Virus record (IMG/VR): IMGVR_UViG_3300005613_000048
Coordinates: 6,858 to 70,857 of that record
DNA from: a virus
Strand: one strand, 5' to 3'
Length of the DNA stretch: 64,000 nt
Shown here: in pieces, positions 32,782 through 64,000 of the stretch
Position numbering within the stretch: position 1 is the stretch's first letter
Layout of the letters: each line of letters begins with the position of its first letter
Translations under genes and position numbers: made by a program
Notes under the pieces: generated by a model
What the model was told of the DNA's origin: nothing
What the model saw: the letters and a program-made list of their open reading frames with translations, nothing else
Database searches by the model: none

Positions 32782-33661
32782 CTCGTGTGACCGGAGGCAA
32801 TATCGGCTCGTCGGCTATTCGGCGGTCGATGTAGTGCTTGCGGCTCAGCGCGGGCTCTGTATGGCCAAGGTACTTCCAAGCAGTGTGCGGCGAGTTTGCT
32901 TCGACGGCAGTCGCCCCGGTACGCCTGAGGTGTTGCATGACACGATTACGCTCATTGGGATCGACTCCTGCCTGCTTTCGACACTGCTTCATCCAGTAAT
33001 AAAGCTGGGTCAAGCAGCCTGGAAATGCTAATGGAGTCTCCCACTTGGCATCGTTCAGCTCCTTTAGCCTGTTGCTGATCCACTCAAGCTCGTGGACTGT
33101 TTCACTGGTCAGGCGACATGAATGCACGCGGCTGGTCTTGTGTTGCGAGAACGACACTACATTCCCTCGCAGCCATGACATGTGAAACGAGAACGCATCT
33201 CCCCGCCGCATGCCAGTCTCGAAGCAGAACCATATCAGACATGGGAAGTACCTGTGCCTCGGTATCCCATTCACGAGCTTACCTCTGAGTTTAGAAGCTG
33301 CTTGTGCAACAGAATCCAATTGCTTGAAGTCCCATGCTTCTGGGTTCTTGTCTGCAACCTTCACTCTCCTGATCTTTCCAGGCTGTGCGGTAAGATCACG
33401 CTCGGCTGCGTACTTCCATATAGTTAGCATGCTGGTCCTTAGATTTTTCCTTGACCTGTCTGAGAGATTACCTTTCGATTGCTGGTCCTTTAACCACGAA
33501 TTTATGAGATGGTCCGACAGTTCGGATGCTAGGACTTGTTTTCCATGCCATTCTTCTAGCTTCCTCCTTGCGTAATCAAGCTGATACTCATACGCCGAAG
33601 TCAATTCGTTTTCCAGGAGATAACTCTCAACCAAACTTTCTAATGAAATGTTAGATTTCAT
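32768..33661 (-). CDS. int: Tyrosine integrase
   Basis: ETGMRRGD, QHKT, HLRR, LGH and KHY catalytic pattern; adjacent to a tRNA-fragment att. Confidence 0.9.
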   Translation of the reverse strand: MKSNISLESLVESYLLENELTSAYEYQLDYARRKLEEWHGKQVLASELSDHLINSWLKDQQSKGNLSDRSRKNLRTSMLTIWKYAAERDLTAQPGKIRRVKVADKNPEAWDFKQLDSVAQAASKLRGKLVNGIPRHRYFPCLIWFCFETGMRRGDAFSFHMSWLRGNVVSFSQHKTSRVHSCRLTSETVHELEWISNRLKELNDAKWETPLAFPGCLTQLYYWMKQCRKQAGVDPNERNRVMQHLRRTGATAVEANSPHTAWKYLGHTEPALSRKHYIDRRIADEPILPPVTRANAG

Positions 33662-39609: not shown

Positions 39610-40947
39610 GTGAACCAAAGACCCCCAAGTAGTTATGTACCAGCCCAGCAGACAGATCAACGCGAATTGGAGACCTCGCTCGTGGCAGCGGGGTTGCTTG
39701 ACCCAACGAGCTTGGATCGTACGAGCTTGGTCGTTGGGCCTGATGACTTCCTTGACCAGGCGATCGGCCGACTTTTCGCACTCTCCGTCGACATGCGAAA
39801 CGCCGGTGAGCCCGTCTCAATCAAGAGCTTGTACTGGCGGGCCAAAGGCCTTCGGATTGGCGGCGAGATGCTTGTTTCTCGTGTTGGTGGGCTTAGCGAG
39901 ATTGGGCGTTGGTGCCAGAGTATCCCAAACGCCGGCCACTGCGTGTACTACGCCCAGCAGATTCGGCGAGCAGCACACAAGCGGCGGCTTGCAAAACTAG
40001 CCATTCAGCTAGCGGAAGACGCGTCTGATTGGAGCGTCGACCCCGAGGATTCTATTTCCGCAATCGAAGCTCTTGCCACTCAGATCAACGCTCGGACTGA
40101 CGAGGTTGTGACTTTACGCCAGGCCTCTCTCTCGGCCCTGGAGTTGATTGAGGCCCGTCGCAGTGCTGTGACTGAGAGCGAGGACGCAGCCGGCCCATCA
40201 CGAGTTAGCTTTGGGCTCCCTTGCCTTGATGACGGCGTTGGCGGAATGTACGGCGGTGACCTAATCGTTGTTGGCGCTAGGCCTTCGATTGGAAAGACTG
40301 CTTTCGCAATGCAATCGGCGGCATTCAACGCGATGCACGGTCGCAAGGTTCTGCTGGTCAGTATCGAAATGAGCCCTGAGGATTTGGCCATGCGCTCGAT
40401 AGCTGGTGAACTTGGCGTTGAGGTTCGCCAGGTGCGTAAGGGGGCGATCAGTAACGAGCTGGTCGAGAAAACACGATCGTGGATCAATGACGAGGCGAAC
40501 GCAAACTTACTGCTGTGGTCAGGCGGAGAGGTGACTGCATCAAAGATTCGGGCGATTGCTCGGATCATGAAAAGCACTAAGAAGATCCAGATGGTTTGCG
40601 TTGATTACCTGAACATCATCAAGCCAGAGAATCGTCGCGATGATCGACACTTGCAGATTGGTCAGATTACTCGCGACCTGAAGACAATGGCGATGGAACT
40701 GCGTGTCCCAGTGGTGCTGCTGTGCCAGCTTGGTCGTGGTGCTGAGTCGGCTCGCCCCAGTATCCGTGACCTGAAGGAGTCGGGGAGCATCGAGCAGGAT
40801 GCCGATGTGATTCTGCTGATGCACCGTGAAGATAGGACGAAACGTGTTTGCGATATTGAAATCGCAAAGGTGCGCAACGGTAAGGTCGGCTCTGTGCAAC
40901 TGGAATTTGACGGCCCGACAACCACTTTTCGTGATACGAGTTTCTGA
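39610..40947 (+). CDS. dnaB: DnaB-like replicative helicase
   Basis: GARPSIGKT, SIEMS, VDYL, LCQLGR, DLKESGSIEQDAD, AKVRNG. Confidence 0.95.
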   Translation: MNQRPPSSYVPAQQTDQRELETSLVAAGLLDPTSLDRTSLVVGPDDFLDQAIGRLFALSVDMRNAGEPVSIKSLYWRAKGLRIGGEMLVSRVGGLSEIGRWCQSIPNAGHCVYYAQQIRRAAHKRRLAKLAIQLAEDASDWSVDPEDSISAIEALATQINARTDEVVTLRQASLSALELIEARRSAVTESEDAAGPSRVSFGLPCLDDGVGGMYGGDLIVVGARPSIGKTAFAMQSAAFNAMHGRKVLLVSIEMSPEDLAMRSIAGELGVEVRQVRKGAISNELVEKTRSWINDEANANLLLWSGGEVTASKIRAIARIMKSTKKIQMVCVDYLNIIKPENRRDDRHLQIGQITRDLKTMAMELRVPVVLLCQLGRGAESARPSIRDLKESGSIEQDADVILLMHREDRTKRVCDIEIAKVRNGKVGSVQLEFDGPTTTFRDTSF

Positions 40948-41537
40948 TGATAGTTTGTGGGATAGATCCTAGTTTGAAGGCCACGGCTGTAGTTGTTGGG
41001 CCTGCGGGCGAGTATCCAGAGTCGCGAGTGTTTTCTTCGTATCGCGTGGATGGCACCGTGAATGGGCGATTCGCGCGCTACGAGAATCAGATCGCTAATT
41101 TGTGCGATTATTTGGAAAGGTGGAAGCCTGATATCGCGTATATCGAGGACTATGTTTTTGGCCGTTGGGATGTGACTCCGATTACAGAGTACGGGGCATT
41201 GCTGCGATGGAGCGTGTTAGAGTTCTGCCCGGTGATTGAAGTTGCACCGACCACGCTAAAGAAATTTGCCGTTGGCTATGGCGGCTCGAAGGGGAATCCT
41301 GTTGGGAAGCCTCAGGTGATTGAGGCGCTGCGATCGCATTTCCATGTCGACTTTGCGACCGATGACGAATACGACGCGTACGCTGCCTGGCGTCTTGGTT
41401 GCCTGGCGTCTGGTCTTGAGCAGCCAACCAGGCCGCACGAGTTGCAGTGCGTACAGACTGTAGTGACTTCCTCCGAGAAGAAGCGGGGAAACAAGAACGC
41501 CAAGGAGTCGAAGGGTTCGGCTCGCAAGGCCAAGTGA
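40947..41537 (+). CDS. RuvC-like Holliday junction resolvase
   Basis: GIDPSLKATA, YIED, PTTLKKFAVG, DEYDA. Confidence 0.85.
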   Translation: MIVCGIDPSLKATAVVVGPAGEYPESRVFSSYRVDGTVNGRFARYENQIANLCDYLERWKPDIAYIEDYVFGRWDVTPITEYGALLRWSVLEFCPVIEVAPTTLKKFAVGYGGSKGNPVGKPQVIEALRSHFHVDFATDDEYDAYAAWRLGCLASGLEQPTRPHELQCVQTVVTSSEKKRGNKNAKESKGSARKAK

Positions 41538-41544
41538 GGATGAG

Positions 41545-41868
41545 ATGGTTGAAGCAGAAACGACCGAAAAGAAGCGGCGAGGGCGCAAGAAGGCTGTTCA
41601 GACAAAGTTCTGTGACACTTTCGAGGAGTTGCCGGAACAAGTGCAGGCGGCTGTCTCTGAATACTCAGAGGCTCTTTCGCAGCGAATGGCATGGCAGGAA
41701 TCTGAGGCCGTCGCTCGCCGGGAACTAAAGGACCAGATGGAAGCCCACGGGCTAAAATTTGTTCCAGATCCTAATGATGAGGAGAAGGTGTTTGCGCTGC
41801 AGACTAGCGATCCAGAGCAGAAGATCAAGAAGCTGCCTCGTAGCAAGGTGATCGCAGGGCTGGAATGA
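41545..41868 (+). CDS. Hypothetical protein
   Basis: ORF in operon with GAGG RBS. Confidence 0.6.
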   Translation: MVEAETTEKKRRGRKKAVQTKFCDTFEELPEQVQAAVSEYSEALSQRMAWQESEAVARRELKDQMEAHGLKFVPDPNDEEKVFALQTSDPEQKIKKLPRSKVIAGLE

Positions 41869-42683
41869 TTAAGCCCATCAAGTATCACGGCGGCAAGCAT
41901 TACCTTGCTGCAAGAATTGTAGAGTTGATGCCTCCGCACGAGCGTTACCTGGAAGCGTTTGTTGGTGGTGCATCAGTGCTGCTGGCTAAGAGAGCTGGCG
42001 GTGTTGCAGAGTTCATCAATGATACGAACGGTGAGCTGACCAACTTTTGGCGAGTCTTATCAAGACCAACAGCGTTCTTGCAGTTTCAGCGAATGGTTGA
42101 GTCAACGCCTTTGGGTGAGTGGTACTTTGAGAATGCGAAACGCGAGGGCAATTCTCTCTATCAGAGAGAGTTCGGCCCCGACGCAACAAGGGCGTACGCG
42201 TTTTTTGTGCGGATGCGTATGAGCCGCCAAGGATTAGGGAAAGACTATTGCACGCCTACATCGCGAACCCGCAGGGGCATGAATGAGAATGTTTCTGCTT
42301 GGCTTAGTGCTGTGGATGGGTTGCCTGAGGTTCATGGCCGGCTCAGGCGAGTAGAGGTTTGGAATCGTCCAGCGATTGAAGCAATTCAGCGTCTGGACGA
42401 TCCAGGCCTCTTGGTTTATGCCGATCCTCCATACATGCACGAGACGCGGGCGACAAAGCAGGAGTATGGCGAATATGAGATGGGTGATGCTGAGCATGTT
42501 GCCTTGCTGGAGTGTCTAGCAGGTATGCGTGGCAAGTTCATGCTCAGCGGGTATTGGAATCCGGTCTATGATCGGTTTGCAATTGACAATGGTTGGCAGC
42601 GTGTGGACTTCGATCTTCCAAATAACGCGAGTTCGCGGAAGTCAAAGCAGCGTAAGACTGAATGTGTTTGGATGAACTTTTAA
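41865..42683 (+). CDS. DNA adenine methyltransferase (D12/Dam class)
   Basis: YHGGK, YLEAFVGGASV, INDTN, YADPPY, MLSGY. Confidence 0.93.
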   Translation: MIKPIKYHGGKHYLAARIVELMPPHERYLEAFVGGASVLLAKRAGGVAEFINDTNGELTNFWRVLSRPTAFLQFQRMVESTPLGEWYFENAKREGNSLYQREFGPDATRAYAFFVRMRMSRQGLGKDYCTPTSRTRRGMNENVSAWLSAVDGLPEVHGRLRRVEVWNRPAIEAIQRLDDPGLLVYADPPYMHETRATKQEYGEYEMGDAEHVALLECLAGMRGKFMLSGYWNPVYDRFAIDNGWQRVDFDLPNNASSRKSKQRKTECVWMNF

Positions 42684-42691
42684 CTTGAGGC

Positions 42692-43336
42692 ATGGTTGGT
42701 ATGGAATTTAAGGCGAGTCGCCAGTTTGGCGATAGGGCTTGGGTGGCTAGGCGTAGACTGGTCCACTTTGTTCACATAGATAACGCCGGGATGTTTGTTG
42801 CAGTCAGTACGGGCCATGAGCCGACAACGCACGCGACGTTTGCCGATGCTGTAAAAGAGTGTACTCGGCTGGAGTCTCTAGCGACTGAATGCGGTGCAGA
42901 TAAGTTTGCCGGGGACGATGGTCGCATGACTCCAGAGAAGGCTGCTCAGGTAGTGAAAGATATCTTGGGCGGAATCTTCGGAGGCGATGTGGGCGTGGAG
43001 GTTGAGACTCTCGGTACGATGCAGTGCCCAGTCCTTTCGCAGCATTTCTTTGCTGCTGATGGCAGGCCGGACGGCGGCGTTTCTCATGGCTTTGGGTTCA
43101 CTATCTCCTGGCAGCGTGGCCCTACAAAGCTGGAAGGAGAGTATCGACGCAACGGCGCATTCGTAACGGATGCTTTGGAGGCCGTCTACTCCAGGATCAA
43201 GAGTTACCAGGACGGCCCGTTCAAGTGCAAGGAGAATGAGGAGGCCCTGTTTCATATCCATAAGGCTTTGGCTGCTCTTAGTAGTCGCCGCGAACAGCGG
43301 AAGGCTCGCGGCGTAGAGGGAACACACGCAGTCTAG
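42692..43336 (+). CDS. Tad1-like anti-defence signalling-nucleotide sponge with N-terminal extension
   Basis: ISWQRGP..NGAFVTDALEAVYSRIKSYQDGPFKCKENEEALFHIHKAL..L..R..R..RGVEGT matches the Tad1 pattern. Confidence 0.78.
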   Translation: MVGMEFKASRQFGDRAWVARRRLVHFVHIDNAGMFVAVSTGHEPTTHATFADAVKECTRLESLATECGADKFAGDDGRMTPEKAAQVVKDILGGIFGGDVGVEVETLGTMQCPVLSQHFFAADGRPDGGVSHGFGFTISWQRGPTKLEGEYRRNGAFVTDALEAVYSRIKSYQDGPFKCKENEEALFHIHKALAALSSRREQRKARGVEGTHAV

Positions 43337-43439
43337 GCTGCGGTGTAGCTCGTATCCACGGAGGCAGAAACGTGGAGTCCAGGTTTAGGGTCATCCTGAA
43401 AGTAGCTCGAACCCATCCGCTACTTAGAAAACCCTATTC

Positions 43440-43541
43440 GGATCGGCGGTGTGACGCGACACCTACTTTGCAACGGAAGACCTACTTCACCGGAGGTGAG
43501 GAGCGCTGGGCTTCACGCAGGTTCAAATCCTGCCCGATCCA
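43440..43541 (+). ncRNA. tRNA-like RNA without a canonical anticodon arm
   Basis: Acceptor GGATCGG/CCGATCC-A, D-like hairpin GGTGT/ACACC, T arm GCAGG-TTCAAAT-CCTGC. Confidence 0.55.
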
Positions 43542-43606
43542 CTAACCGACTGCTGAGTCTGATTACATGGTCAATGATAAATCTGGTTCGACCTTCGTCG
43601 GTTTTT

Positions 43607-43680
43607 GTCGGGGAGAGTGTTGGTTCTCCGCTGGGTCTCATAAGCCCATGCTGACGCTCGTTCGATTCGAGCCCCCGGCC
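43607..43680 (+). tRNA. tRNA with CAT anticodon (Met/fMet/Ile2), atypical D arm
   Basis: Acceptor GTCGGGG/CCCCGGC, anticodon arm TGGGT-CTCATAA-GCCCA, T arm GCTCG-TTCGATT-CGAGC. Confidence 0.7.
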
Positions 43681-43717
43681 CTGTTGAGTGTTGTGATTAG
43701 CGTTTATTAGGAGTCTT

Positions 43718-43951
43718 GTGATGCGAGTGGAAGTTCCGATTCTGACAGCTCATGGTGCGGCGACTTATGAGGTGGATGCAAAGAATCAGACTGAGGCCAG
43801 GGAAAAGATTCAGCGAGGCGAGGCCAGGTTCTTAACAACTCAGATCGTGCATTACAAGTTGAATTTCGACGCGATCAGGGAGGTGCCGCGACCTGATGTG
43901 GATGCAGATGCGGAACTGTGCGATGTAAGAAACGTAGAAGCCGGTCGGTAG
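43718..43951 (+). CDS. Hypothetical protein
   Basis: AGGAG RBS. Confidence 0.55.
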   Translation: MMRVEVPILTAHGAATYEVDAKNQTEAREKIQRGEARFLTTQIVHYKLNFDAIREVPRPDVDADAELCDVRNVEAGR

Positions 43952-43978
43952 GCCGCTTGGTATTTGAGAGTAGTGAAT

Positions 43979-44443
43979 ATGTTGACTGACAGAAAAACTG
44001 AAGACACGTACATATTCCGAACAGAAAGCGGAATGAAAAACGGTCGTGAACCTAAAACCTTGCGGTTGCAACTTCCCTCAAGGCGAGTGTGGATCGATCT
44101 CGACGAGGTTAAATATGAAGCCCTGATTAAAGCGAGAGACGTTTGGCGACAACACTGCGAATTAGTCTCGCTCTCGGATTGTGCTGTAGACCTGCAACTA
44201 CACGGCGAAGGATTTACGGTTCGCATTTATTCAGCCTATTCACTAGTGAGCAACGAAATAGTTAGACCCACTAACTCGCTCAATTACATCGAGCTTGACA
44301 CGATTGGCCGCCGTTCAGAGATTATCATTTGCAACACCACGCCATCAGAAAAATCAGGTTTTAAAGGTTGTCTGGAATATTTTTTAGACAGCGTTGATGA
44401 AATGGAACGATTCGTTGCTTCACGGTCAACTAACCGCCACTGA
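43979..44443 (+). CDS. Hypothetical protein
   Basis: ORF following a TTGAGAGTAG leader. Confidence 0.55.
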   Translation: MLTDRKTEDTYIFRTESGMKNGREPKTLRLQLPSRRVWIDLDEVKYEALIKARDVWRQHCELVSLSDCAVDLQLHGEGFTVRIYSAYSLVSNEIVRPTNSLNYIELDTIGRRSEIIICNTTPSEKSGFKGCLEYFLDSVDEMERFVASRSTNRH

Positions 44444-44459
44444 GATATTGAGAGTAGCC

Positions 44460-44675
44460 ATGTCATTAAATTTGCCGCGGGATTTAGAGTTAAAGCTTGA
44501 TGAGTACCGGCGACATCGAAAGGATGAAACCGGCAAGCGACCGTTTCGAGACACGGCAATAGTTGAGTTGTTGAGGACAGCACTCGAAGGGTTTACGCCG
44601 CCACAGCCGCTATCGGATCGCATCGCCAAAATTGAAGATCGCTTGGATTTGATTGAAAGCGACTTAGGACAGTAA
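44460..44675 (+). CDS. Ribbon-helix-helix-like DNA-binding protein
   Basis: MSLNLPRDLELKLDEY...RDTAIVELLRTAL followed by a coiled coil. Confidence 0.55.
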   Translation: MSLNLPRDLELKLDEYRRHRKDETGKRPFRDTAIVELLRTALEGFTPPQPLSDRIAKIEDRLDLIESDLGQ

Positions 44676-44709
44676 CGGTCATATTTACATACACAGGAGT
44701 CCTGCGAAA

Positions 44710-44991
44710 ATGAATCCTTACGAAACGCCTACTGAACCAGAAGATAACGTTTGGACGGCACCGCGATGGTTCGCATTACCATTTCGAGTGCTTGGTTTTC
44801 CGCTTATGGCCGTGATTTATCTCGGCCTAAAAATCCCACTAGATATTGTGATATGCATGGATTGGATGTTCGATCGAGTCGCAGCGTGTTGCGGTTACGA
44901 TCCTAGATATTGGCCGCTGCCCAAGGGACAGGATGTTGATTTTCGTTTTCGTCGGCCACGATGCGAGCGTTGCAATCGTGCGGTCGATTAG
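44710..44991 (+). CDS. Small membrane protein (NPY.P start)
   Basis: AGGAG RBS; MNPYETP followed by a hydrophobic segment. Confidence 0.55.
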   Translation: MNPYETPTEPEDNVWTAPRWFALPFRVLGFPLMAVIYLGLKIPLDIVICMDWMFDRVAACCGYDPRYWPLPKGQDVDFRFRRPRCERCNRAVD

Positions 44992-45013
44992 TTCATAACA
45001 CTATCGAGAGAAC

Positions 45014-45184
45014 ATGAAGGCGTTCTTAGAAATAACCGACGAGCAGCGGGAGTCCATTCTGCTGAGTGCTGGCGTTGTACCGCTCAAATATGAGCTACAG
45101 AAAGACGGTACTGTCGTTGCTAAATATCCACCGCACACAATTGTATTTGTGAACGGAAGTTACATTGTTAGCGTCAAACACTAA
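45014..45184 (+). CDS. Small hypothetical protein (56 aa, not in ORF track)
   Basis: MKAFLEITDEQRESILL...VKH* with GAGAG leader. Confidence 0.4.
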   Translation: MKAFLEITDEQRESILLSAGVVPLKYELQKDGTVVAKYPPHTIVFVNGSYIVSVKH

Positions 45185-45192
45185 TTGAGAGT

Positions 45193-45254
45193 AGTAACGC
45201 TTCCCATTGCCAACAGAGCTTGCCGCCGCTCCGTTGCAATTTTTTGTTCGGTGG
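45193..45254 (-). other. Degenerate/partial attC site
   Basis: One arm GCCGC-T-CCGTTG-C-AAT and core GTTCGGTGG are present; the other arm is imperfect. Confidence 0.5.
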
Positions 45255-45274
45255 CTTTTCGAGGAATAGAGATT

Positions 45275-45595
45275 ATGCAAACGCATTACGACAACAATCA
45301 CCAATCGGCATTCATCGACGCATTGCGAGAGCGTGCAGCCAAAGCGGAGAAAGCAGCGGCATCGGTGATTACGGCAGGCGAGAAGGACGAACAAGAGCTT
45401 GGATCGTGGAAGGCATCGAACGGCGTTCATTGCCGTCATCTTCCAGACGATCCGCAAGGCATCCTGCGAATGAGCATTGGCGGCGGTGAACATCTTCCGG
45501 TCACGATGAATTACGTGGTGGTTCGCGGGAAGATTGGGCAGTGTATCGAGTTGCTGGAAAAGGCTCTTGTTGCGTTAAAGGAGTGCTCAGAATGA
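45275..45595 (+). CDS. Cassette-borne hypothetical protein
   Basis: GAGG RBS; lies inside the first attC cassette. Confidence 0.6.
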   Translation: MQTHYDNNHQSAFIDALRERAAKAEKAAASVITAGEKDEQELGSWKASNGVHCRHLPDDPQGILRMSIGGGEHLPVTMNYVVVRGKIGQCIELLEKALVALKECSE

Positions 45596-45774
45596 AACGG
45601 TTTATGCGATGGGTTCGGTTGACGTTGGGTTTAGCCACCGTTCCAGAAGTATGCGAAGCATCTTCCGGTGGCGTGGATTACCACGACTACCCCAAGGACA
45701 AGGGAGGCGACGGAACGCCGTCGCACTTCCACGAGTACACATGCTGGAATTGTGGCAAGAAGTTCGGAATCTAA
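45592..45774 (+). CDS. Cassette-borne small protein with possible Zn-ligand residues
   Basis: C...HDY...HF..YTCWNCG; AAGGAG RBS; stop directly before attC. Confidence 0.55.
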   Translation: MKRFMRWVRLTLGLATVPEVCEASSGGVDYHDYPKDKGGDGTPSHFHEYTCWNCGKKFGI

Positions 45775-45776
45775 GT

Positions 45777-45871
45777 CCACCGAACGCTGCCCATCATCGG
45801 GCAACGGCCAACAGATTAACCATTTCAAATAAACCACGCCCGTTGCTCCGATGCATGGGCTTGTTCTCTGT
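45777..45871 (-). other. Integron attC site
   Basis: CCACCGAAC...CCAT-CATCGG-GCAACGG loop CCGTTGC-T-CCGATG-C-ATGG...GTTCTCTGT with two extrahelical bases. Confidence 0.82.
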
Positions 45872-45887
45872 TCACAAAGGAAAAGAC

Positions 45888-46193
45888 ATGAAGTATGTAG
45901 GTTACGCAACAGTCACGATTTTGTTGATGGTGTTTTCGGCTCTGTTCAATGGATACGCCCTCTCGGTTTTGTGGGGATGGTTTATCGTTCCGACGTTCAA
46001 TTCGCCACAACTAAGTATTCCCGCAGCGATTGGAGTCTCAATGATCGTTGGATACTTGGCGAAGACGATCAAGGTGGACGACGAAGACAAACAAAAGCCG
46101 TTTGGCGAGACGCTGTTTAAGGGTGCGGTTTTGAGCGTGTTGAAGCCGACCATCGCGTTGATGTTCGGTTGGGTGGTCAGTGTTTGGATGTGA
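45888..46193 (+). CDS. Cassette-borne membrane protein
   Basis: LWGWFIVP.F..P.LSIPAAIG; three hydrophobic segments; fills the cassette. Confidence 0.7.
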   Translation: MKYVGYATVTILLMVFSALFNGYALSVLWGWFIVPTFNSPQLSIPAAIGVSMIVGYLAKTIKVDDEDKQKPFGETLFKGAVLSVLKPTIALMFGWVVSVWM

Positions 46194-46194
46194 T

Positions 46195-46288
46195 ACAGAG
46201 AACGTTTGCCGTCATCGGGCGGCGAAGGAAAAACTATGAACAAATCGAAAGACTCTCCCGCCGCTCCGATGCACGGCATTGTTCTCTG
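46195..46288 (-). other. Integron attC site
   Basis: ACAGAGAAC...GCCGT-CATCGG-GCGGCG loop CGCCGC-T-CCGATG-C-ACGGC...GTTCTCTG. Confidence 0.82.
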
Positions 46289-46619
46289 CGTGGCGGTGTT
46301 ATTGCTCATCAGTTGTTTGCTGACATCGAGTTACATTTGGTGTCACGCGATGGGCTGGCGATCAACCCGCGTCGTCGATGAAATTCACATCGAAAAGCTT
46401 GATGACAGGTACACCATCCCAGCAACACAAATGCGGAAGATGATTGCCTTCGATGGCTCACCTTTTTTCGACTACTGGTGGGAACCAGCAAAAGACATTC
46501 ACTATGAACGGTGGACCATCAAAGCGGTCGATGGATTTGAGATCGTAATTAACCGGGTAGATCCGATGGATCCGCCAGAGATTTGCGATGGCGATAGATA
46601 CACTGGATGGTGGAAGTAG
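46236..46619 (+). CDS. Cassette-borne protein starting inside the attC loop
   Basis: AAGGA RBS and ATG within the attC loop; TM segment; stop 5 nt before core CAGAGAAC. Confidence 0.55.
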   Translation: MNKSKDSPAAPMHGIVLCVAVLLLISCLLTSSYIWCHAMGWRSTRVVDEIHIEKLDDRYTIPATQMRKMIAFDGSPFFDYWWEPAKDIHYERWTIKAVDGFEIVINRVDPMDPPEICDGDRYTGWWK

Positions 46620-46737
46620 CCATCCAGAGAACTATTTATTCACCCCGGTTCACACAGGGTGAATTAGCAATTCGGCAAGAATCGCCACCTATGGGTGGTG
46701 GTGAGATTTGATAGTTCGATACGCGATAGGCATATTT

Positions 46738-46825
46738 GGATTGCAGGCGTGGGCCAGCCTAATCGGTTCATCCACGCAGGGGCGTAAATTCGCGGCAAAC
46801 ACAGGTTCGATTCCTGGGCGATCCA
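46738..46825 (+). ncRNA. Second tRNA-like RNA without a canonical anticodon arm
   Basis: Acceptor GGATTGC/GCGATCC-A, D-like AGGC/GCCT, T arm CAGG-TTCGATT-CCTG. Confidence 0.5.
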
Positions 46826-46861
46826 CTGGTTAGGTTTTGGTGTTTTTTTAAGGAGAGACAG

Positions 46862-47143
46862 ATGGAAACGACAGAGACAGGATTGGTAGAGCAGTCGGAT
46901 ACGCCACGCAGTCTGGTAAGCCTCGACCATAACGGGCCGAGCATACGCGTGTTGTGCATTGGTAATGGCAATATGGTTGTGCCGGCTGGCGCAGTTGATG
47001 AAGACGGGAACGCTAGGCCGATCAACCATAGTTTTGTGTCGAGGCTTTCTTTCGGCATGTTCGCGCTGTCATTCGCATGTGGTCTGAGCCTCGGCGTATG
47101 GACCAACGTACTCATGGATTGGATTGTAGCGCGGGGATGGTAA
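46862..47143 (+). CDS. Small protein with C-terminal TM
   Basis: AAGGAG RBS. Confidence 0.6.
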   Translation: METTETGLVEQSDTPRSLVSLDHNGPSIRVLCIGNGNMVVPAGAVDEDGNARPINHSFVSRLSFGMFALSFACGLSLGVWTNVLMDWIVARGW

Positions 47144-47955
47144 GGCGAGTGCAGCGAAAAAGGCTCAAGGGTTGGCAGAGTCCGCCGAACACTCGTTCGG
47201 TCTGCCGCCCTGGAAGGTTCGGCAATCCGTTTGCCACTGCGAAAGCGTACCGCGACTGGCTTGTTCGCGGCGAGGTTGATCGGATGCAGTTACTCGACCA
47301 GCTCTCGGCTGCGGAACTAAGATGCAGGCGGTTCGAGATCCTGTCTGCCCTGCATGAAATACGCAGACAGAACCTGAGTTGCTTTTGTCCGCTTGATGGG
47401 GATTGCCATGCCGATGTGCTTTTGGATCTTGCGAATCGTCGCAGCGACTGGATCACTGACGGAGGCGAATTGACTGCCTTTGGTGCAGTATTCAGCGATG
47501 ATCGCAGGTATCGTTACACGCTTTGGCGGCGATGGAGCTTTGGAGGTGATAACCTTTGTGCTTTCATAGGCCTCAACCCTTCAACTGCGGACGAGTTCAG
47601 GAATGACCCGACAGTGACTCGTTGCATCAGGCGCGCGCAGCAGCTCGGCCACAGTGGCATGGTCATGCTTAACTTGTTTGGCTATCGCGCCACTGACCCG
47701 CGCGACATGAAGAGGTTCCCAGAGCCCATTGGCTGGCAGAATGACCAGGCTATCTTGGATGTATGCAGGGAAGCAGGGAGAGTGATCTGTGCATGGGGCG
47801 CTCATGGTGAATACCAGGGGCGGGCAGAGCATGTGTTGGGCATGCTGAAGCGCAATCGGATCGCAGTCTATCACTTGGGCTTGACGCAAGCTGGACACCC
47901 ACGGCATCCGCTTTACTTGCGAAATGATTTGGTTCCCGAGCGTTGGGAGATTTGA
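47137..47955 (+). CDS. DUF4326-DUF1643 fusion protein
   Basis: RPGRFGNPF..LSCFCP..CHADVL (DUF4326) then YRYTLWR..FIGLNPSTAD..DPT..AWG..PRHPLY (DUF1643). Confidence 0.8.
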   Translation: MVRRVQRKRLKGWQSPPNTRSVCRPGRFGNPFATAKAYRDWLVRGEVDRMQLLDQLSAAELRCRRFEILSALHEIRRQNLSCFCPLDGDCHADVLLDLANRRSDWITDGGELTAFGAVFSDDRRYRYTLWRRWSFGGDNLCAFIGLNPSTADEFRNDPTVTRCIRRAQQLGHSGMVMLNLFGYRATDPRDMKRFPEPIGWQNDQAILDVCREAGRVICAWGAHGEYQGRAEHVLGMLKRNRIAVYHLGLTQAGHPRHPLYLRNDLVPERWEI

Positions 47956-48019
47956 TGCGGACTTGGGACCGCTTCTATCAGGAAGTGCATTAACCGGCGT
48001 CCTTGCCGGTCCCTCTGCG

Positions 48020-49630
48020 TTAGTTGAGCTTGAGCATGTTAGATGGTGCGATTCGGAAGCTCGAACCGAATGTAGATCGAATGAACTCAGCGTCTCCATT
48101 GGTGGCCTGGAGTTCTTCGATAGCATCCTCAGCACTGCGGAGCCATCCCAGCAGTCTGCCTGCCTCGACATTGATTGCCAACATGAGCTTCTGGCTGAAT
48201 TGCATGTGCAGGTTTTGATTCTTGAAGGCCCGCACGGCCACCAGCGGCTCGCCGTCATTCATCTTGATGGTGTTCTTCGTGCTGCTCGACCACCGATAGT
48301 TTAGTGGACTGTCGTCGCAATCGAAACCGAGGTTGTTGGCTACCGTGATGCAATCGCGGATGAAGTCATACGCAGCCTAACAGAGCCCGTTGCGGTTCTC
48401 GAACTGCCACTGCGAAGTGCTGATTCCGCCAATGCGTTCGCAGACAATGCGGTACTCCAGCTTGTAATGGCTGTGATGTTCGTCCAAGTATCGCCATCCC
48501 GAACGCTCCCATACTTTGTGGTTTGATTTGTAGTTGACGACGTTGCACTTCTCGCTCAGCATTCGGAACACGCCGATGAGCTGTTCATCGAAGTAATCAT
48601 TGGACCATTTGGTGATCCAGATCAGCATGGAGTAGATGTTGCTCTCGGTGAAGTCGATGGTTGACTTGCTTTCGAGGCTGTCAAGAAACTGCTTGCGTTG
48701 CTTGGTCGCGAGTCGCTTGGTGATTGGATCCAGGCGATCGAAAAGAACACGCCAGTATTTGTACTTGAGGCCCGTAATCTTTTCCCTAATGCCAACCATC
48801 ACGCTGCTCTTAGTGACATCTAGTTCCTTCAGGATGATTGGATTTAGTTGTGCAACAGCCCTGTAGTTGTTCACGAGCTGAACCAGCTCGGCATCGTAGG
48901 CCTTCACGAGCGACTGGATCAAGTTGGAATCGCTTTCGATCATGCGGCAGGCTCGATCGTAAGCGTCAGTCTCGGGCTCAAGCTCAATGTCGAAAACTTC
49001 GAGTTCAGGCATCATCTCCTCGATTGCAGCATTGAAAGGGCAATGCTCGTGGTCGCGAAGGTAGAGGTAGACAACCTCGACCTTGCACCTTGCTTTGCGT
49101 TCGGCGTTTTCAAAGTCAAACTCGCCAAGCGATACGGTTTCGACGTTGCGAGAGGCAATGGCAGCATTGATTTCCAGTGACTGCCTCCAACGTCTAGGAA
49201 TCACCAAGTACAAATGATTCGCGTTCGATTCGCGGATCAGTTTCACTGCCCAATCCTCGTACTCACTGTACGGTGGATTTGAAAAAGTGATATCCATGTG
49301 CTTGTCGACGATCATCTGACACCGAAAGTCAGTTCCAATTACGACAATATGCTTTGGCATTGCGTTGAGGTGTGGAGTTGCCTTCTCGATGCCAAAGAGT
49401 TCCACTTGGTGGTGGAAGTTCTTGTTCTCATCGAGGGTGCTTTTGATGGCATCGAGAACCCGTCCGTCACCAGCTCCGACATCAAGGATCTTCAGTTTGC
49501 CGTGGTGGTAGTCGACTTGCGAGACGATGTGGCTGGCGACCAACTGAGTAATCTCCTCAGTCGTTGGATACCATTCAAAATCTTCGCCAGCATCTTTCAA
49601 TGCTAGTACGGTCTGCGTGGTGCTACTCAT
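48020..49630 (-). pseudogene. SAM-dependent methyltransferase with DUF4942-like C-terminus, interrupted by one in-frame TAG at 48377-48379
   Basis: EWYPT, LDVGAGDG and NPPY motifs; frame stays open after TAG through AFKNQNLH..NVEAGRLLGWL. Confidence 0.72.
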
Positions 49631-49835
49631 TGCTATCCTTCGTTGGTAGTGGACTTTTGGGAACTTTGCCGCCTGTAATGTGCTTCCAGTTGCGGCCATG
49701 GACGATATGCTTGACCGTGCTGTAGTTGGCACCGATCAGCTTTGAGATTTTCAAGGGACCATGCCCTTGGTGCCGAAGTTCAATGATCTTCCGCACTTGT
49801 TCTTCAGTCAGTTTGGGAGTACAGAGCTTGCTCAT
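49623..49835 (-). CDS. Small HTH protein
   Basis: KLTEEQVRKI...ISKLIG.NYSTVKHIVHGRNWKHI. Confidence 0.65.
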   Translation of the reverse strand: MSKLCTPKLTEEQVRKIIELRHQGHGPLKISKLIGANYSTVKHIVHGRNWKHITGGKVPKSPLPTKDSNE

Positions 49836-50062
49836 TCGTCGAAGCTCTCGATTTCCCGTGCTTTCAACATTGCATCCGCAATGCGGTAGCACTTCTCAGC
49901 CACGCACCTGATGCAGTCGTTGCTGTTGATCCAACCACCTTGTTCTGACTGTGATGCCAGTTCGCCACTGAGCGCAGCCGCAGCGAAGTAATCGCGAATG
50001 GTGATCCCAGGAAACGCTTGGGTTCCGTGTGGCAGAGGGAACGCTGGTAAATTGCCGCTCAC
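49832..50062 (-). CDS. Conserved small phage protein
   Basis: PAFP..GITIRDYFAAAAL..YRIADAMLKAR motif. Confidence 0.75.
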   Translation of the reverse strand: MSGNLPAFPLPHGTQAFPGITIRDYFAAAALSGELASQSEQGGWINSNDCIRCVAEKCYRIADAMLKAREIESFDE

Positions 50063-50331
50063 TACTTGATCCTAATGATAGAGACACGACCTGTAAGAAT
50101 ACGACTTTGGGAACGTTGCACGAGCTTGATGGTTTCATCTCCGTGCCCATCTTTAACCATCCATGCTTTTGCGGTCAGCTTGCTGCTGAACCGCAGCCCA
50201 ACGATGGCGGAACCATCACTAGTAACGGTTGCTCGCATCCCAACCTTGATGCTTGGCAGCATATTGCCGTATGGGTTCTTGGTTACTTCGACGATGTCGC
50301 CCTTGCGAAAACTTGGCATGATTCGCTCCAT
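50062..50331 (-). CDS. Small SH3-like hypothetical protein
   Basis: FRKGDIVEV...KVGMRATV. Confidence 0.55.
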   Translation of the reverse strand: MERIMPSFRKGDIVEVTKNPYGNMLPSIKVGMRATVTSDGSAIVGLRFSSKLTAKAWMVKDGHGDETIKLVQRSQSRILTGRVSIIRIK

Positions 50332-50352
50332 GTGAGAGTGCGGTGTGTCTAC

Positions 50353-50384
50353 AAAAAAAGCCCGTCGACCGAAGCCGGCGGGCT
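50353..50384 (-). terminator. Rho-independent terminator
   Basis: AGCCCGCCGG-loop-CGACGGGCT followed by a T run on the minus strand. Confidence 0.7.
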
Positions 50385-50413
50385 AATGCAATATCTACGG
50401 CGAGTTGCGCCGG

Positions 50414-50670
50414 CTACGCTGGCTGGCAATAGTAGGCCAGTTGTTGGCCAATCCCTTTCCCTTGCACTGGTCTGGCGGTTCGTACGCCAAAGACGCGAAG
50501 GGTCGTCGACGTTGATCCATCAAAACAAGGATTGAAACGCGAAAGAGAGTGCCGTTGTAAAGTTCTCTCGCTGGGGTAAAGTCACAAACGCCCCGGTGTA
50601 CCTTGGACTTGCCGCAGCCTACCAGAGCGATCCGCAGGCCTGGCCGGTTGTCGAGTTGCTTTGGAGTCAC
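50414..50670 (-). pseudogene. DUF6884-like gene with its centre replaced by a CRISPR repeat
   Basis: N-part IALVGCGKSK..PARELYNGTLFR (50670-50539); C-part PVQGKGIGQQLAYY* in another frame (50500-50414). Confidence 0.7.
50502..50538 (+). CRISPR. Solitary 37-bp CRISPR repeat GTCGTCGACGTTGATCCATCAAAACAAGGATTGAAAC
   Basis: 37 nt, ATTGAAAC 3' handle, ATCC/GGAT stem; resembles the GATCCAxxAAAACAAGGATTGAAAC class 1 repeat family; no second copy seen. Confidence 0.82.
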
Positions 50671-50755
50671 GTTAGTTCCTGCGTGAGAGTGTGAAGGTGA
50701 ACCTAATCGCACTGCCCCGCAGGGCAGCGCCGTTAGTGTCACGTTCGGTAGCCAA

Positions 50756-52069
50756 TCAGCCAGCCAAGCTGACGGTTTTCATCCACGATGGCACTTCTCG
50801 CTTGCAATCGTCGCGAGTGAGAGCGACCACCACAGGTGCCTTTGGCTTCTGGTCAGGCCAAGGGGTGTACCCATCGGTAACGCAGACGATCAGATCGACA
50901 GGGTCTTTCTGCTCGGCTACGTGGTCGATGATGGCGCCCATGTCGGTGCCACCGCCGCCGGCAAGTTCGACTTGGTCATGCCGGAACACTTTGGCCTTGG
51001 TGCAGGCCTGAGTGTCTCCGGTGATGACGCGGATCCCGTCGCTCGATCGAAGGGCTCCGAGGACTTGAGCGATCAGCCCGAGCGCCGAGGCTAACTCGGA
51101 TTGACGCATCGAGCCCGAGGTGTCGACGATGATCACAACCCTTGGGTTGGGCCGGATCGACTTTGGCCGCAGAACACCGCCAACGGGCAGACGTCTGGCG
51201 GGCCTTCGATAGGTCGAAGTGCCAGGGCCGCTTTCGGCTCCGGTCAGCCGTGTGCGGATCGCATTGGCCAGCAATCGGCGAGGATTGATCTTGGTTGGCT
51301 GTGCCTGGTCGACCAAACGCTTGGCCGACTGAGACCCTACGCCCTTCCGCTTGGTAATATCCTCGACCACCTTTTGGACAATCTGCTCCGCGTCGTGACT
51401 ACTCACGCCGGGTGGAGCGTCATTTGAGGCCCCTGAGGCCTCGCCTGACGCGTCCTCTTCGCCACCTGACTCAGACAGCGGCTCGTCCTCTAAACTCGAT
51501 TCCCAGGGCCGTTTTTGGCCGTCGCTGCCGCTTCCGCCCGGTTGTGGTTGGCCTTGGTCGCTTTCCTGGCCTGTGCCGGACTCAGGATCGCCATCGCCGC
51601 CCCCACCGCTTGCCGGTTGGTGATCCTGTTGCTTTGCGTGTTGCTGCATCAGGATCTGGAAGTATTCTTCCGCGGGTAGCTCGGGCTTGAGGCCGTCACG
51701 CTGTGGCATCAGAGCGTATTCCGGAACCGTCATGCCCTCGGCGTCCAGCATGCTGTTCACGGCGTAATCCGCCGCGATGTTCCAGAGTACCTGTTCATGG
51801 CCTCCAGGTCGCTTCAGCACACGCTGGCCACGGGTGCAGTGACCTAGAACGAGGTGGCACACTTCGTGAGCCACAACGAACTCCAGATCGTCCTTGGAAC
51901 GAGTGTCCACAAACTCTCGATTCCAGTACAGTCGCCACTTGGCGTCGACAGCCATGGTTCCGACAGCCGATTGCTCGACTTCGGCCATGGACAAGGTGGC
52001 CGTTGCTAAGAACGGCCACCGGCGGCACACAGCAAGGCGTGCCGCTGCAATCTTGTCCTCGGCTTTCAC
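50756..52069 (-). CDS. DUF2201-like metallopeptidase plus VWA domain protein
   Basis: AHEVCHLVLGH, WNIAADYAVN, VDTSGSM, GGGGTD, VTDG. Confidence 0.88.
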   Translation of the reverse strand: MKAEDKIAAARLAVCRRWPFLATATLSMAEVEQSAVGTMAVDAKWRLYWNREFVDTRSKDDLEFVVAHEVCHLVLGHCTRGQRVLKRPGGHEQVLWNIAADYAVNSMLDAEGMTVPEYALMPQRDGLKPELPAEEYFQILMQQHAKQQDHQPASGGGGDGDPESGTGQESDQGQPQPGGSGSDGQKRPWESSLEDEPLSESGGEEDASGEASGASNDAPPGVSSHDAEQIVQKVVEDITKRKGVGSQSAKRLVDQAQPTKINPRRLLANAIRTRLTGAESGPGTSTYRRPARRLPVGGVLRPKSIRPNPRVVIIVDTSGSMRQSELASALGLIAQVLGALRSSDGIRVITGDTQACTKAKVFRHDQVELAGGGGTDMGAIIDHVAEQKDPVDLIVCVTDGYTPWPDQKPKAPVVVALTRDDCKREVPSWMKTVSLAG

Positions 52070-53175
52070 TATGCGGAAGCTCCTACGATCAGTTCAGCCA
52101 TCTCCTGGGAGATGCCAGCTCGAATGCGAGGCTCGTAGCCGCTGGGCTTGGCTTTCCAAACCGCACCGTGGCAGCTCACGGCCAGCTCTCGGCGCTGGCT
52201 GAAGATGTGTTCGTTCAGGTCCATGAGACTCTCCCAGGTCTCAGGATCGTTCTCACGCTTGGCCACACCGATGCAGCCAGCGATCATTGCACGGGCTAGG
52301 TCGAATCGTCGTGGAACTTGCCAAGACGTCGGGTTGGCCAAGATCGACTCGGGCGTTGGCAGTCGCTGTTTGTCCACCCATGCCAGGAACTCCATGGCAG
52401 GGCCATCACCGACACAACCACGAACCAGCTTGGATGCGGTTGCCTTGGATCCGCCAGCCGCTTCACAAGCAGCCAACAAGATGCCGGCGTTGGTCCAAGA
52501 GCGATCCGAACGCCATGGGCGAATTGCAGCCGATTCGTCCTTGGGATATGTCTCCTCGGGATCGAAGTGCTGCGGCATGCTCTCCTCGAACATGCAAAGC
52601 AACTGTCCCCACTTGGGACCGAAGTCTAACAGGAAGTCAGGCGGAACGATTGGGAACTCGGGTGCTGGGAAGTGGGTAAAGCCATTGGCCCATCCAGCCC
52701 GTCGCTCGTCGATGTGTCGCTCCCATTGGAGCATACACACGCGGTTGATCACTGGCGGTGCCAGTTCAACACCCGAGGTTGATTGTTCGATCGGGTTCAT
52801 GAACGCGCCCATCCAGCAAAGGTCAGGCGGGTTGTTGATGATTTCCTGAGCAGCCCCCAAAACATCATGCGATGCGTGGTTCAGCTCATCGAGCAGCACA
52901 ATCGAAGGCTCGTTGGTCGCACGGACCAGTTCCTCAGGCATGAGAGACATGACACACTCATGCTCCTCGCCATCAATGTCGATGGTGCGAGGCACAGGAA
53001 CGCCACCGATGTCCTCACGCAATTTTTGCGAAAGGATCACTTGCAAGAATCGCCGCTTCGTAGCAGCAGCCATTGCACGGCATACAGCCGTTTTGCCTTG
53101 ACCAGGGCTGGACTCAGCCACTGGCACTACACCCGCTTGCATTGCGATGTAGAAGGCCCAGTTGGTTTGACTCAT
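52069..53175 (-). CDS. MoxR/dynein-related AAA+ ATPase
   Basis: SSPGQGKT, LLDELN, PPVINR and RSW motifs; paired with the VWA gene. Confidence 0.85.
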   Translation of the reverse strand: MSQTNWAFYIAMQAGVVPVAESSPGQGKTAVCRAMAAATKRRFLQVILSQKLREDIGGVPVPRTIDIDGEEHECVMSLMPEELVRATNEPSIVLLDELNHASHDVLGAAQEIINNPPDLCWMGAFMNPIEQSTSGVELAPPVINRVCMLQWERHIDERRAGWANGFTHFPAPEFPIVPPDFLLDFGPKWGQLLCMFEESMPQHFDPEETYPKDESAAIRPWRSDRSWTNAGILLAACEAAGGSKATASKLVRGCVGDGPAMEFLAWVDKQRLPTPESILANPTSWQVPRRFDLARAMIAGCIGVAKRENDPETWESLMDLNEHIFSQRRELAVSCHGAVWKAKPSGYEPRIRAGISQEMAELIVGASA

Positions 53176-53300
53176 GCGAATCACCAGGGGACAGAGGGAA
53201 GAAAACACGGCGGTCACCGCCGACATAGCAATATCCACGGCGAGTTGCGCCGGGCTCCGAGCGAGAGATAGTCAAGTGTCGACCATGTCGCTCTACAAAC

Positions 53301-55316: not shown

Positions 55317-55394
55317 GTCTAAGCTCCTTGGTAAGAGGAAGTGGCGGCGAACATCGCCGCCGTAGCAATATCCAGCCCCGGTTGCGCCGCCGGC

Positions 55395-58651: not shown

Positions 58652-58747
58652 TGTCTAAGCTCCTGGGTAAAGTGAAGTGAAGTGAAGTGAAGCCGGAGCG
58701 AGTCCGGCCTCATTGCAATATCTAAGCGGTGTTGCGCCGGTCGACGA

Positions 58748-63847: not shown

Positions 63848-64000
63848 AAACCTTGATGTAGTTCATGACCAGATCGACGTTGTGTTTGTACGCATGATGT
63901 CCGTGGTAGACTGCACCGGGTGTCCATACCCGAATGCAGTTTTTCTCGTAACGGATCTTAGTGACGCAGTTGAACATCTGGTGCTTCACGAGAGCGTCAA

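What the first reader, a model, noticed from the sequence alone, without database searches (positions are those of the whole stretch)
50414..50670. A single CRISPR repeat precisely replaces the middle of a phage gene
Seen: a 37-bp repeat-like sequence (50502-50538, ending ATTGAAAC with an ATCC/GGAT stem) sits between a 44-codon N-terminal fragment (IALVGCGKSK..ARELYNGTLFR) and a 28-codon C-terminal fragment (P.QGKGIGQQLAYY*) of one DUF6884-like gene; the two fragments are out of frame. No cas operon or second repeat is visible. Known: this is the shape of class 1 (I-B/III-type) repeats, spacers can recombine with their phage targets, and solitary repeats can act as RNA anti-CRISPRs. Inference: the flanks equal two consecutive host spacers taken from this gene, both antisense to its mRNA as type III needs. 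A double crossover with the host array would delete the gene core and place repeat sequence beside both protospacers, which could make them look like self or supply a decoy crRNA. The main alternative is an assembly chimera through a host array.
Basis: partly seen in the sequence, partly recalled or inferred. Interest (0 to 1): 0.88.

Follow-up and report, generated by a model that had tools for sequence, protein, structure and literature searches.

The report
Lone CRISPR repeat in phage gene
A single genuine CRISPR repeat sits exactly where about 240 bases of a small phage gene are missing, which looks like the scar of an exchange between the phage and a host's CRISPR array, although an assembly error could not be ruled out.

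Summary
At 50502-50538 (+) lies one full-length 37-nt CRISPR repeat. Rfam CRISPR-DR7 matches it over positions 1-37 of 37. Its 25-nt 3' part is identical to array repeats beside type I-B cas genes in archaeal and bacterial MAGs. It is solitary, and I found no cas gene in the 70.9-kb viral record. On the minus strand it is flanked by the first 44 codons and the last 28 codons of one DUF6884-like gene, in different frames. About 80 codons are missing, including the LSAxxG motif.

Best reading (about 0.5): a scar of homologous exchange between the phage and a host array through two neighbouring spacers. The exchange put the repeat's 3' end where the PAM of the downstream protospacer had been.

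Assembly chimera (about 0.27) is weakened but not excluded. A second public record carries the identical junction, no other record among 241 million metagenome contigs holds this 37-mer, and no intact allele was found. No reads could be mapped.

The type III argument is not supported, since the repeat family sits beside I-B genes. A Racr-like decoy is not supported either: the repeat is antisense to its operon and no promoter was predicted. This scan has noted similar captured repeats in another phage (e1-5376847).

The parts
50502..50538 (+). Solitary 37-nt CRISPR repeat (12-nt variable 5' part, then a 25-nt conserved 3' part ending in the 8-nt tag ATTGAAAC)
   Evidence: Unique in the window. 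Rfam CRISPR-DR7 match over positions 1-37 of 37, 36.2 bits. Core identical to array repeats in 5 MAGs. Hairpin fold.
50539..50670 (-). N-terminal fragment of a DUF6884-like gene: 44 codons from a GTG start with an AGGA ribosome-binding site. It keeps the CxxxK motif as CGKSK.
   Evidence: Motif definition taken from passages read in PMC11701544.
50414..50500 (-). C-terminal fragment of the same gene (28 codons plus TAG), one base out of frame with the N-terminal fragment
   Evidence: Translation. Alignment to Naby gp21 residues 119-131, E 5e-5.
50465..50501 (+). Inferred protospacer A: phage sequence that would equal the leader-proximal host spacer. Its length is assumed from the 33-44-nt spacers of this repeat family.
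   Evidence: Inference only. Spacer lengths. No matching spacer found.
50539..50575 (+). Inferred protospacer B: now preceded by the repeat's 3' end instead of its original PAM
   Evidence: Inference from the geometry. No matching spacer found.
50349..50385 (-). Hairpin followed by a run of 7 T: intrinsic terminator ending the minus-strand operon just after the gene remnant
   Evidence: Sequence. Fold of -18.7 kcal/mol. The consensus scan did not list it.
50388..50408 (-). Copy of the phage's GCAAC-N8-GATATTGC motif (promoter-like or operator-like), between the stop codon and the terminator
   Evidence: 5 GCAA-N13-TTGC hits against 2.05 expected. Four of them share the longer consensus.
50756..53238 (-). 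Upstream genes of the same minus-strand operon: an AAA ATPase (52069-53238) and a DUF2201 metallopeptidase/VWA protein (50756-52069)
   Evidence: A motif copy at 53228-53248 lies at the operon head.

Best explanation
The 37-mer is a real repeat of a type I-B-associated CRISPR family. It entered the phage genome by homologous exchange with a host CRISPR array.

Inferred steps: the host carried two neighbouring spacers taken from the phage's non-essential DUF6884 gene, about 240 bp apart and on the same strand, as primed adaptation tends to produce. Either a double crossover or an integration followed by excision through these roughly 36-nt homologies would replace the gene core with the intervening repeat. 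Gap repair of Cas3 damage using the array as template would give the same product.

The product is mainly a scar, but it has one immediate effect. The downstream protospacer (50539 onward) now has the repeat's 3' end (…AAC) where its PAM was, so it looks like the array itself. Any targets inside the deleted 240 bp are gone as well. In the sense orientation the upstream spacer would be the newer one, and the phage keeps the native flank of that protospacer. The gain would therefore be against hosts that carry only the older spacer.

The repeat lies antisense to the AAA ATPase-VWA-DUF6884 operon, so I do not expect it to be made as a Cas6b-cleavable small RNA.

Shown: the identity of the repeat, the gene fragments, the deletion size, the solitary state and the orientation. 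Inferred: the host spacers, the exchange and the selective effect.
For: - Real repeat with exact boundaries.
- The family sits beside Cas5b/Cas3/Cas6b/Cas1/Cas4b in 3 of 3 arrays examined.
- The flanks are the two ends of one gene. Homology runs right up to the repeat on the N-terminal side (query residues 12-44 of 44). The C-terminal motif lies 10 codons from the other side.
- Against a chimera: a second public metagenome record, L011 (11,651 bp), is 100% identical over window 39835-51485 and includes the junction. It was the only record among 241 million metagenome contigs that holds the exact 37-mer, so no array contig with this repeat is on record there.
- No array with this 5' part turned up in the scan of genome contigs.
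- No protein of 63-202 aa in 5.8 billion clusters shares words with the N-terminal fragment, so no intact allele was called in any assembly. This holds although neighbouring proteins of this phage are on record from two further contigs, ENA 71,600 bp and JGI/IMG 68,363 bp. No intact allele was found in IMG/VR either.
- Precedent: spacer-protospacer recombination (Varble 2019, seen only as cited in PMC10434264). Leaderless phage mini-arrays have been suggested to arise by recombination with host arrays (PMC6858448 discussion).
- Two other IMG/VR viruses carry this repeat family, one as a mini-array and one as a lone repeat.
Against: - No host array with this repeat was found, and none of the 342 spacers from related arrays matches the window. 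The best matches are 18-22 nt with 2-3 mismatches.
- No related phage with the intact gene was found, so the deletion end points cannot be read at DNA level.
- No sequencing run was listed, so no read evidence exists here.
- L011 may derive from the same or a sister sample, so it shows an independent assembly at most, not independent biology.
- Both fragments look undecayed, which fits a very recent event and a chimera equally well.
- The record's 123-bp terminal overlap suggests a multi-k de Bruijn assembly. As I recall, such assemblies can start with k shorter than a spacer, which is what a chimera through spacers needs.
- The escape is only partial, because the upstream protospacer keeps its native flank.
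Confidence: 0.5

Rival explanations
1. Assembly chimera. The true phage has an intact DUF6884 gene, and the assembler walked from the phage through two adjacent host spacers and the repeat between them.
For: - It produces exactly the observed sequence.
- The fragments show no decay.
- The 123-bp terminal overlap points to a multi-k de Bruijn assembly. That such pipelines begin at k below spacer length is recalled, not tested.
- No read data could be obtained, and the DNA of the two other contigs could not be fetched.
Against: - The same junction stands in a second record of different length, L011.
- No other contig with this 37-mer exists among 241 million metagenome records, although a chimera needs the array in the same sample. 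Short array contigs may have been discarded, so this point is moderate.
- No intact allele or orphan gene core was seen in 5.8 billion protein clusters or in IMG/VR.
Confidence: 0.27
2. Functional RNA anti-CRISPR (Racr-like decoy). The repeat is transcribed on the + strand, bound by host Cas6b and Cas7, and titrates the I-B machinery. How it originated is a secondary question under this reading.
For: - Solitary repeats are widespread in viruses, and several inhibit CRISPR-Cas (PMC10651486, passages read).
- The full repeat and its hairpin are intact.
- The palindromic GCAA-N13-TTGC motif lies 94 nt upstream on the + strand.
- Small genes of unknown function followed by a weak HTH gene lie nearby.
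Against: - No sigma-70-like promoter was predicted on either strand in 49800-51000.
- The repeat lies inside gene remnants, not in an intergenic region, and is antisense to an operon that has its own terminator.
- The longer motif consensus is directional and lies on the minus strand.
- The host is unknown, so a match to the host's CRISPR subtype cannot be tested.
Confidence: 0.1
3. Antisense 'anti-repeat' RNA. The operon's mRNA carries the reverse complement of the repeat in its 3' end. This RNA pairs with host pre-crRNA repeats or crRNA handles and disturbs their processing or loading.
For: The orientation and the operon structure make minus-strand transcription across the repeat the likely case. 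The motif sits at 53228-53248, the genes are co-oriented, and the terminator lies at 50349-50385. The complement would match a cognate repeat over all 37 nt.
Against: No precedent for type I systems turned up in the papers I read. There is no expression data. The arrangement is also what a passive scar in a minus-strand gene would give half of the time.
Confidence: 0.06
4. Attachment site. The repeat serves as attP for integration of the phage into host CRISPR arrays, as in phage PhiAP1.1.
For: PhiAP1.1 integrates into CRISPR repeats (bioRxiv 10.1101/2020.10.09.333658, abstract read). A weak tyrosine-integrase-like ORF exists in the phage.
Against: The integrase-like ORF scores below threshold (21.5 bits against 27.1). 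It lies about 17 kb from the repeat (window 32771-33661), whereas attP sites normally adjoin int. This reading also does not explain why the repeat sits in a deleted gene.
Confidence: 0.03

Closest known systems
Viral solitary repeat units (SRUs) / RNA anti-CRISPRs (Racrs), Camara-Wilpert et al. 2023 (PMC10651486; passages read)
   Same: A single CRISPR repeat with an intact hairpin in a virus that has no cas genes and no second repeat.
   Different: Racr candidates were sought in intergenic regions, often just after a promoter, and are expressed as small RNAs. This copy lies between the two halves of a broken gene, antisense to its operon, with no predicted promoter. Its expression is unknown. 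The paper's list of 2,103 viral SRUs is in supplements I could not open, so this copy may already be listed there.
Virus-borne mini-CRISPR arrays (Medvedeva et al. 2019, PMC6858448; review PMC11656645; passages read)
   Same: Host-type repeats carried by viruses. For leaderless phage mini-arrays, recombination with host arrays has been suggested as the source.
   Different: Here there is one repeat and no spacer against a rival virus. The flanks are the phage's own gene, so inter-virus targeting does not apply.
Spacer-protospacer recombination between phages and CRISPR loci (Varble et al. 2019, Nat Microbiol; not held, seen only as cited in PMC10434264)
   Same: Homologous recombination across roughly 35-nt spacer/target identity joins phage and array DNA.
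   Different: As I recall it, that work showed single crossovers that let phages transduce CRISPR loci in staphylococci. Here a double exchange would have left only one repeat in a viable phage genome, in an uncultured phage.
PhiAP1.1 integration into CRISPR repeats (Varble et al., bioRxiv 10.1101/2020.10.09.333658; abstract and outline read)
   Same: A phage-borne sequence equal to a CRISPR repeat. Integration and excision cycles move repeats and spacers.
   Different: No integrase lies next to the repeat, the system is type I-B rather than II-A, and the repeat replaces part of a gene.
Type I-B CRISPR arrays with CRISPR-DR7-like repeats (arrays in Bathyarchaeia, Ignavibacteriaceae and an unclassified bacterial MAG: L003, L004, L009)
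   Same: A 37-nt repeat with an identical 25-nt 3' part including the ATTGAAAC tag, and the same GTCG start as in L009.
   Different: Not in an array and not beside cas genes. The 12-nt 5' part matches no array found.

Membership tests
CRISPR repeat of the CRISPR-DR7 / type I-B-associated family | Sequence and structure match to the family model over its full length | tested here: met
   Rfam RF01320 positions 1-37 of 37, E 1.5e-5, 36.2 bits, which is 0.8 bits under the gathering score. The 25-nt core is identical to array repeats in 5 MAGs.
CRISPR repeat of the CRISPR-DR7 / type I-B-associated family | 8-nt 3' tag ATTGAAAC and a short hairpin upstream of it | tested here: met
   Sequence. Fold (7-pair stem including ATCC/GGAT).
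CRISPR repeat of the CRISPR-DR7 / type I-B-associated family | Occurs as regularly spaced copies with spacers, next to cas genes | tested here: not met
   One copy in the 70,857-bp record. No Cas family among the 85 ORFs scanned. It is a repeat of the family, not an array.
Viral SRU / Racr (RNA anti-CRISPR) | Solitary repeat in a mobile element without cas genes | tested here: met
Viral SRU / Racr (RNA anti-CRISPR) | Intergenic position directly downstream of a promoter, sense orientation | tested here: not met
   Inside gene remnants and antisense to the operon. 0 sigma-70-like promoters in 49800-51000. The scan is crude and covers one promoter type only.
Viral SRU / Racr (RNA anti-CRISPR) | Matches the repeat and subtype of the host's own CRISPR-Cas system | not testable with these tools
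   Host unknown. None of the 342 spacers from related arrays hits the phage. No relative of the 757-aa virion protein was found in the 167 genomes of the phylum that holds the most similar repeats.
Viral SRU / Racr (RNA anti-CRISPR) | Expressed as a small RNA that binds Cas6/Cas7 and lowers interference | not testable with these tools
   No RNA runs could be listed.
DUF6884 (PF21818) | CxxxK motif near the N terminus | tested here: met
   CGKSK in the 44-codon fragment. Motif definition from PMC11701544.
DUF6884 (PF21818) | LSAxxG motif and a whole-domain score above Pfam's threshold | tested here: not met
   The motif region is absent because it falls in the missing roughly 80 codons. 16.9 bits against a cut-off of 30. 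This is a broken gene, not a member in working order.
Product of phage x CRISPR-array recombination through spacers | A host array that carries spacers equal to both flanks, adjacent and in this order | tested here: inconclusive
   No array with the exact 37-mer in genome contigs, metagenome contigs or viral contigs.
PhiAP1.1-type attP in a CRISPR repeat | Integrase gene next to the repeat-like site | tested here: not met
   The only integrase-like match scores below threshold and lies about 17 kb away.

The most novel reading that the evidence does not exclude
The phage mended CRISPR damage by copying the host's own array (spacer-repeat-spacer) into its genome. It now transcribes the captured repeat backwards in the 3' end of an operon mRNA. 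This anti-repeat RNA would pair with the repeats of the host's pre-crRNA and block type I-B crRNA maturation. That would be an RNA anti-CRISPR acting by antisense pairing rather than by mimicry.
Probability: 0.06. Interest if true: 0.85.

Novelty: new variant of a known kind. Interest (0 to 1): 0.5.

Why it matters
Lone CRISPR repeats in viruses are known, but how they get there is mostly guesswork. If this junction is real, it is a natural, base-precise footprint of origin: one repeat flanked by the two halves of the gene from which the host took two neighbouring spacers. It would show that phages can exchange DNA with the arrays that target them, and that the exchange itself can erase a PAM. 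It also predicts a reciprocal product, a piece of phage gene about 300 bp long sitting as an oversized spacer in a host array. That gives a direct search target in metagenomes. If the junction is a chimera, it is a useful warning for catalogues of viral solitary repeats built from short-read assemblies.

Tried and rejected
The ENA 71,600-bp and JGI/IMG 68,363-bp contigs that hold this phage's proteins therefore could not be read.

Relatives with an intact gene:
- The search for related loci with the 437-aa and 389-aa neighbours found none in viral contigs.
- An alignment of 13 homologues fetched 80 distant loci at 24-42% identity. tblastn with both fragments and Naby gp21 found no DUF6884 gene in them (best E 0.26).
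- The 48-aa N-terminal query found none.
- phmmer of the 44-aa fragment against 1.84 billion representatives gave one hit (P0127, 438 aa, 5 stretches, E 1.3e-6), which I did not follow up.
- The junction ORFs in three start forms and the + strand ORF are not in the protein collection.

Host:
- 135 spacers and 207 spacers from arrays of this repeat family do not match the window.
- None of the 342 matches any of the 86 viral loci held, apart from the L002 spacer hitting its own locus. No PAM could be derived.
- The 757-aa virion protein has no match in the 167 genomes of G001's phylum.
- 5 of 167 genomes of that phylum have arrays of the repeat family. One of the five, G166, is unpublished, so without it the count is 4 of 166. 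Its locus L023 contributed 13 repeat matches, and the spacers between them, to the 207-spacer screen. No sequence of it is given here.

Rejected readings:
- A chance look-alike.
- A decayed mini-array.
- An intron or intein, because the insert is 37 nt and about 80 codons are missing.
- A type III-specific logic.

Papers: Faure 2019 (PMC11165670) and Varble 2019 (PMC6533911) are not held. I know them only through citing papers and recall. Searches listed no title describing a lone repeat between the halves of a phage gene. I read listings plus passages of 6 papers only, so this is not proof of absence. Supplements were closed.

Full report
WHAT IS THERE. The window is bases 6858-70857 of a 70,857-bp IMG/VR virus record classed as having direct terminal repeats. 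The terminal repeat is exactly 123 bp, and the GC content is 53.5%.

The 37-mer GTCGTCGACGTTGATCCATCAAAACAAGGATTGAAAC lies at 50502-50538 (+). It occurs once in the window with up to 3 mismatches, against 0 expected. Its 25-nt core occurs once in the whole record. Rfam's CRISPR-DR7 model matches exactly these coordinates on the + strand over its full length: 36.2 bits, gathering score 37, E 1.5e-5. The predicted hairpin contains the ATCC/GGAT stem.

IT IS A REAL REPEAT FAMILY, TYPE I-B. The 25-nt 3' part is identical to the repeats of arrays in five MAGs: two Bathyarchaeia, an Ignavibacteriaceae complete genome, a Thermoplasmatota and an unclassified bacterium. The arrays hold up to 74 copies per genome.

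In all of them the repeat is 37 nt, with a free 12-nt 5' part and this conserved 3' part. Spacers are 33-44 nt, mean 35.9. The copy in the unclassified bacterium starts with GTCG, as the phage copy does. In that bacterium's phylum, 5 of 167 genomes have arrays of the family; one of the five is unpublished.

Beside 3 of 3 arrays examined lie Cas3, Cas6b and Cas1. Cas4b accompanies them in two cases and Cas5b in one. So the family belongs to type I-B, which targets DNA through a PAM.

THE FLANKS ARE TWO ENDS OF ONE GENE. On the minus strand a GTG at 50670, with AGGA 6 nt upstream, opens 44 codons that run to 50539, the base next to the repeat. They align with residues 1-29 of the 143-aa gp21 of Microbacterium phage Naby (E 3e-8) and with an unannotated homologue in Myxococcus phage Mx4 (47% identity). 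They also match the first 27 positions of Pfam DUF6884, below threshold. The family's CxxxK motif is present as CGKSK (for the motif).

On the other side of the repeat, in a frame shifted by one base, 28 codons end in TAG at 50414-50416. Their PVQGKGIGQQLAY aligns with gp21 residues 119-131 (E 5e-5).

Measured against gp21 and Mx4, about 80-85 codons are missing, including the LSAxxG motif. A hairpin with seven T follows at 50349-50385. The gene is the last of a minus-strand operon with an AAA ATPase and a DUF2201 peptidase/VWA protein.

SOLITARY, NO CAS. No partial repeat lies within 300 bp beyond chance. Cas6 was not found. Of 85 ORFs scanned against PADLOC, none of the 25 families shown (of 30 hit) is a Cas family.

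REAL OR CHIMERA. Both readings need the same host array, spacer A-repeat-spacer B, and both give the same sequence. Only reads or independent copies can decide.

What I could get:
- The exact 37-mer occurs in one record among 241 million metagenome contigs. That record, L011 (11,651 bp), is 100% identical to window 39835-51485. The junction was therefore assembled at least twice, and no array contig with this repeat is on record.
- No array in the species-representative genomes has this 5' part.
- Neighbouring proteins of this phage are on record from two more contigs, ENA 71,600 bp and JGI/IMG 68,363 bp. Even so, no protein of 63-202 aa in 5.8 billion clusters shares even three 5-residue words with the N-terminal fragment. 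No intact allele was found in IMG/VR either.

These points weaken the chimera but do not exclude it. L011 may come from related reads, short array contigs are often discarded, and the 123-bp overlap suggests a multi-k assembly. That such assemblies start below spacer length is recalled, not tested.

MECHANISM. I favour a true exchange with a host array, at about 0.5. The routes are a double crossover, integration followed by excision, or array-templated repair.

In sense orientation the repeat's 3' end now sits directly before the inferred protospacer B. In a type I system that is the PAM position, so B would look like array DNA. Protospacer A keeps its native flank, so the escape is partial. 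In the array A would be the leader-proximal, newer spacer, so the gain would be against hosts that carry only B. This last step is inference.

A Racr-like decoy is not supported. No promoter was predicted, and the repeat is antisense to an operon that has a motif copy at its head and a terminator at its end. An antisense anti-repeat RNA is possible but untested.

COMPARISON AND NOVELTY. Solitary repeats and mini-arrays in viruses are established (PMC10651486, PMC6858448, PMC11656645; passages read). Recombination with host arrays has been proposed as their source, and spacer-protospacer recombination is cited in PMC10434264. Two other IMG/VR viruses carry this same repeat family.

What is new here is the footprint: one repeat exactly between the halves of the targeted gene. 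Notes of this scan report related cases on other DNA. Captured repeats that erase a PAM are described in e1-5376847, and phage pieces in spacer positions in e1-4833350 and e1-4135688. I did not check those notes.

Noticed in passing
L002 6290-6420 (-): A 117,770-bp IMG/VR virus carries a two-repeat mini-array of the same repeat family with one spacer of about 36 nt. The second repeat has 2 changes in the core.
   Followed up: partly
L116 2007-2045 (-): A 42,277-bp AT-rich IMG/VR virus has a lone copy of the 23-nt repeat core in an AT-rich intergenic stretch between a 100-aa and a 635-aa ORF. This is the classical SRU layout.
   Followed up: partly
window 50388-50408, 53228-53248, 55365-55385, 58715-58735: Minus-strand motif GCAAC-N8-GATATTGC ahead of gene blocks. 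The copy at 50388-50408 abuts the terminator hairpin at 50349-50385, so a terminator and the next promoter or operator seem to overlap.
   Followed up: partly
G000 ends (L115 1-123 and window 63878-64000): The 'direct terminal repeat' is exactly 123 bp. It looks like the overlap of a circular assembly path rather than a physical terminal repeat.
   Followed up: partly
window 49623-50331 (-): Right after the terminator come an 89-aa gene and a 76-aa gene with no family match, then an 89-aa protein with a weak HTH. This layout recalls anti-defence gene plus regulator operons.
   Followed up: partly
window 32771-33661 (-): ORF with a sub-threshold tyrosine-integrase match (21.5 bits against 27.1). 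The phage may be temperate.
   Followed up: no
L003, L004, L006, L009 and G153/G154/G156: The same 23-25-nt repeat 3' part is shared by type I-B arrays of archaea and of several bacterial phyla, while the 12-14-nt 5' part is free. G154 alone holds 285 copies.
   Followed up: partly
L013 1471-2010 (+) = OK085710.1 about 5777-6316: Myxococcus phage Mx4 has an open frame with a clear DUF6884-like sequence that is not annotated as a gene. It overlaps the annotated p13 and p14.
   Followed up: no
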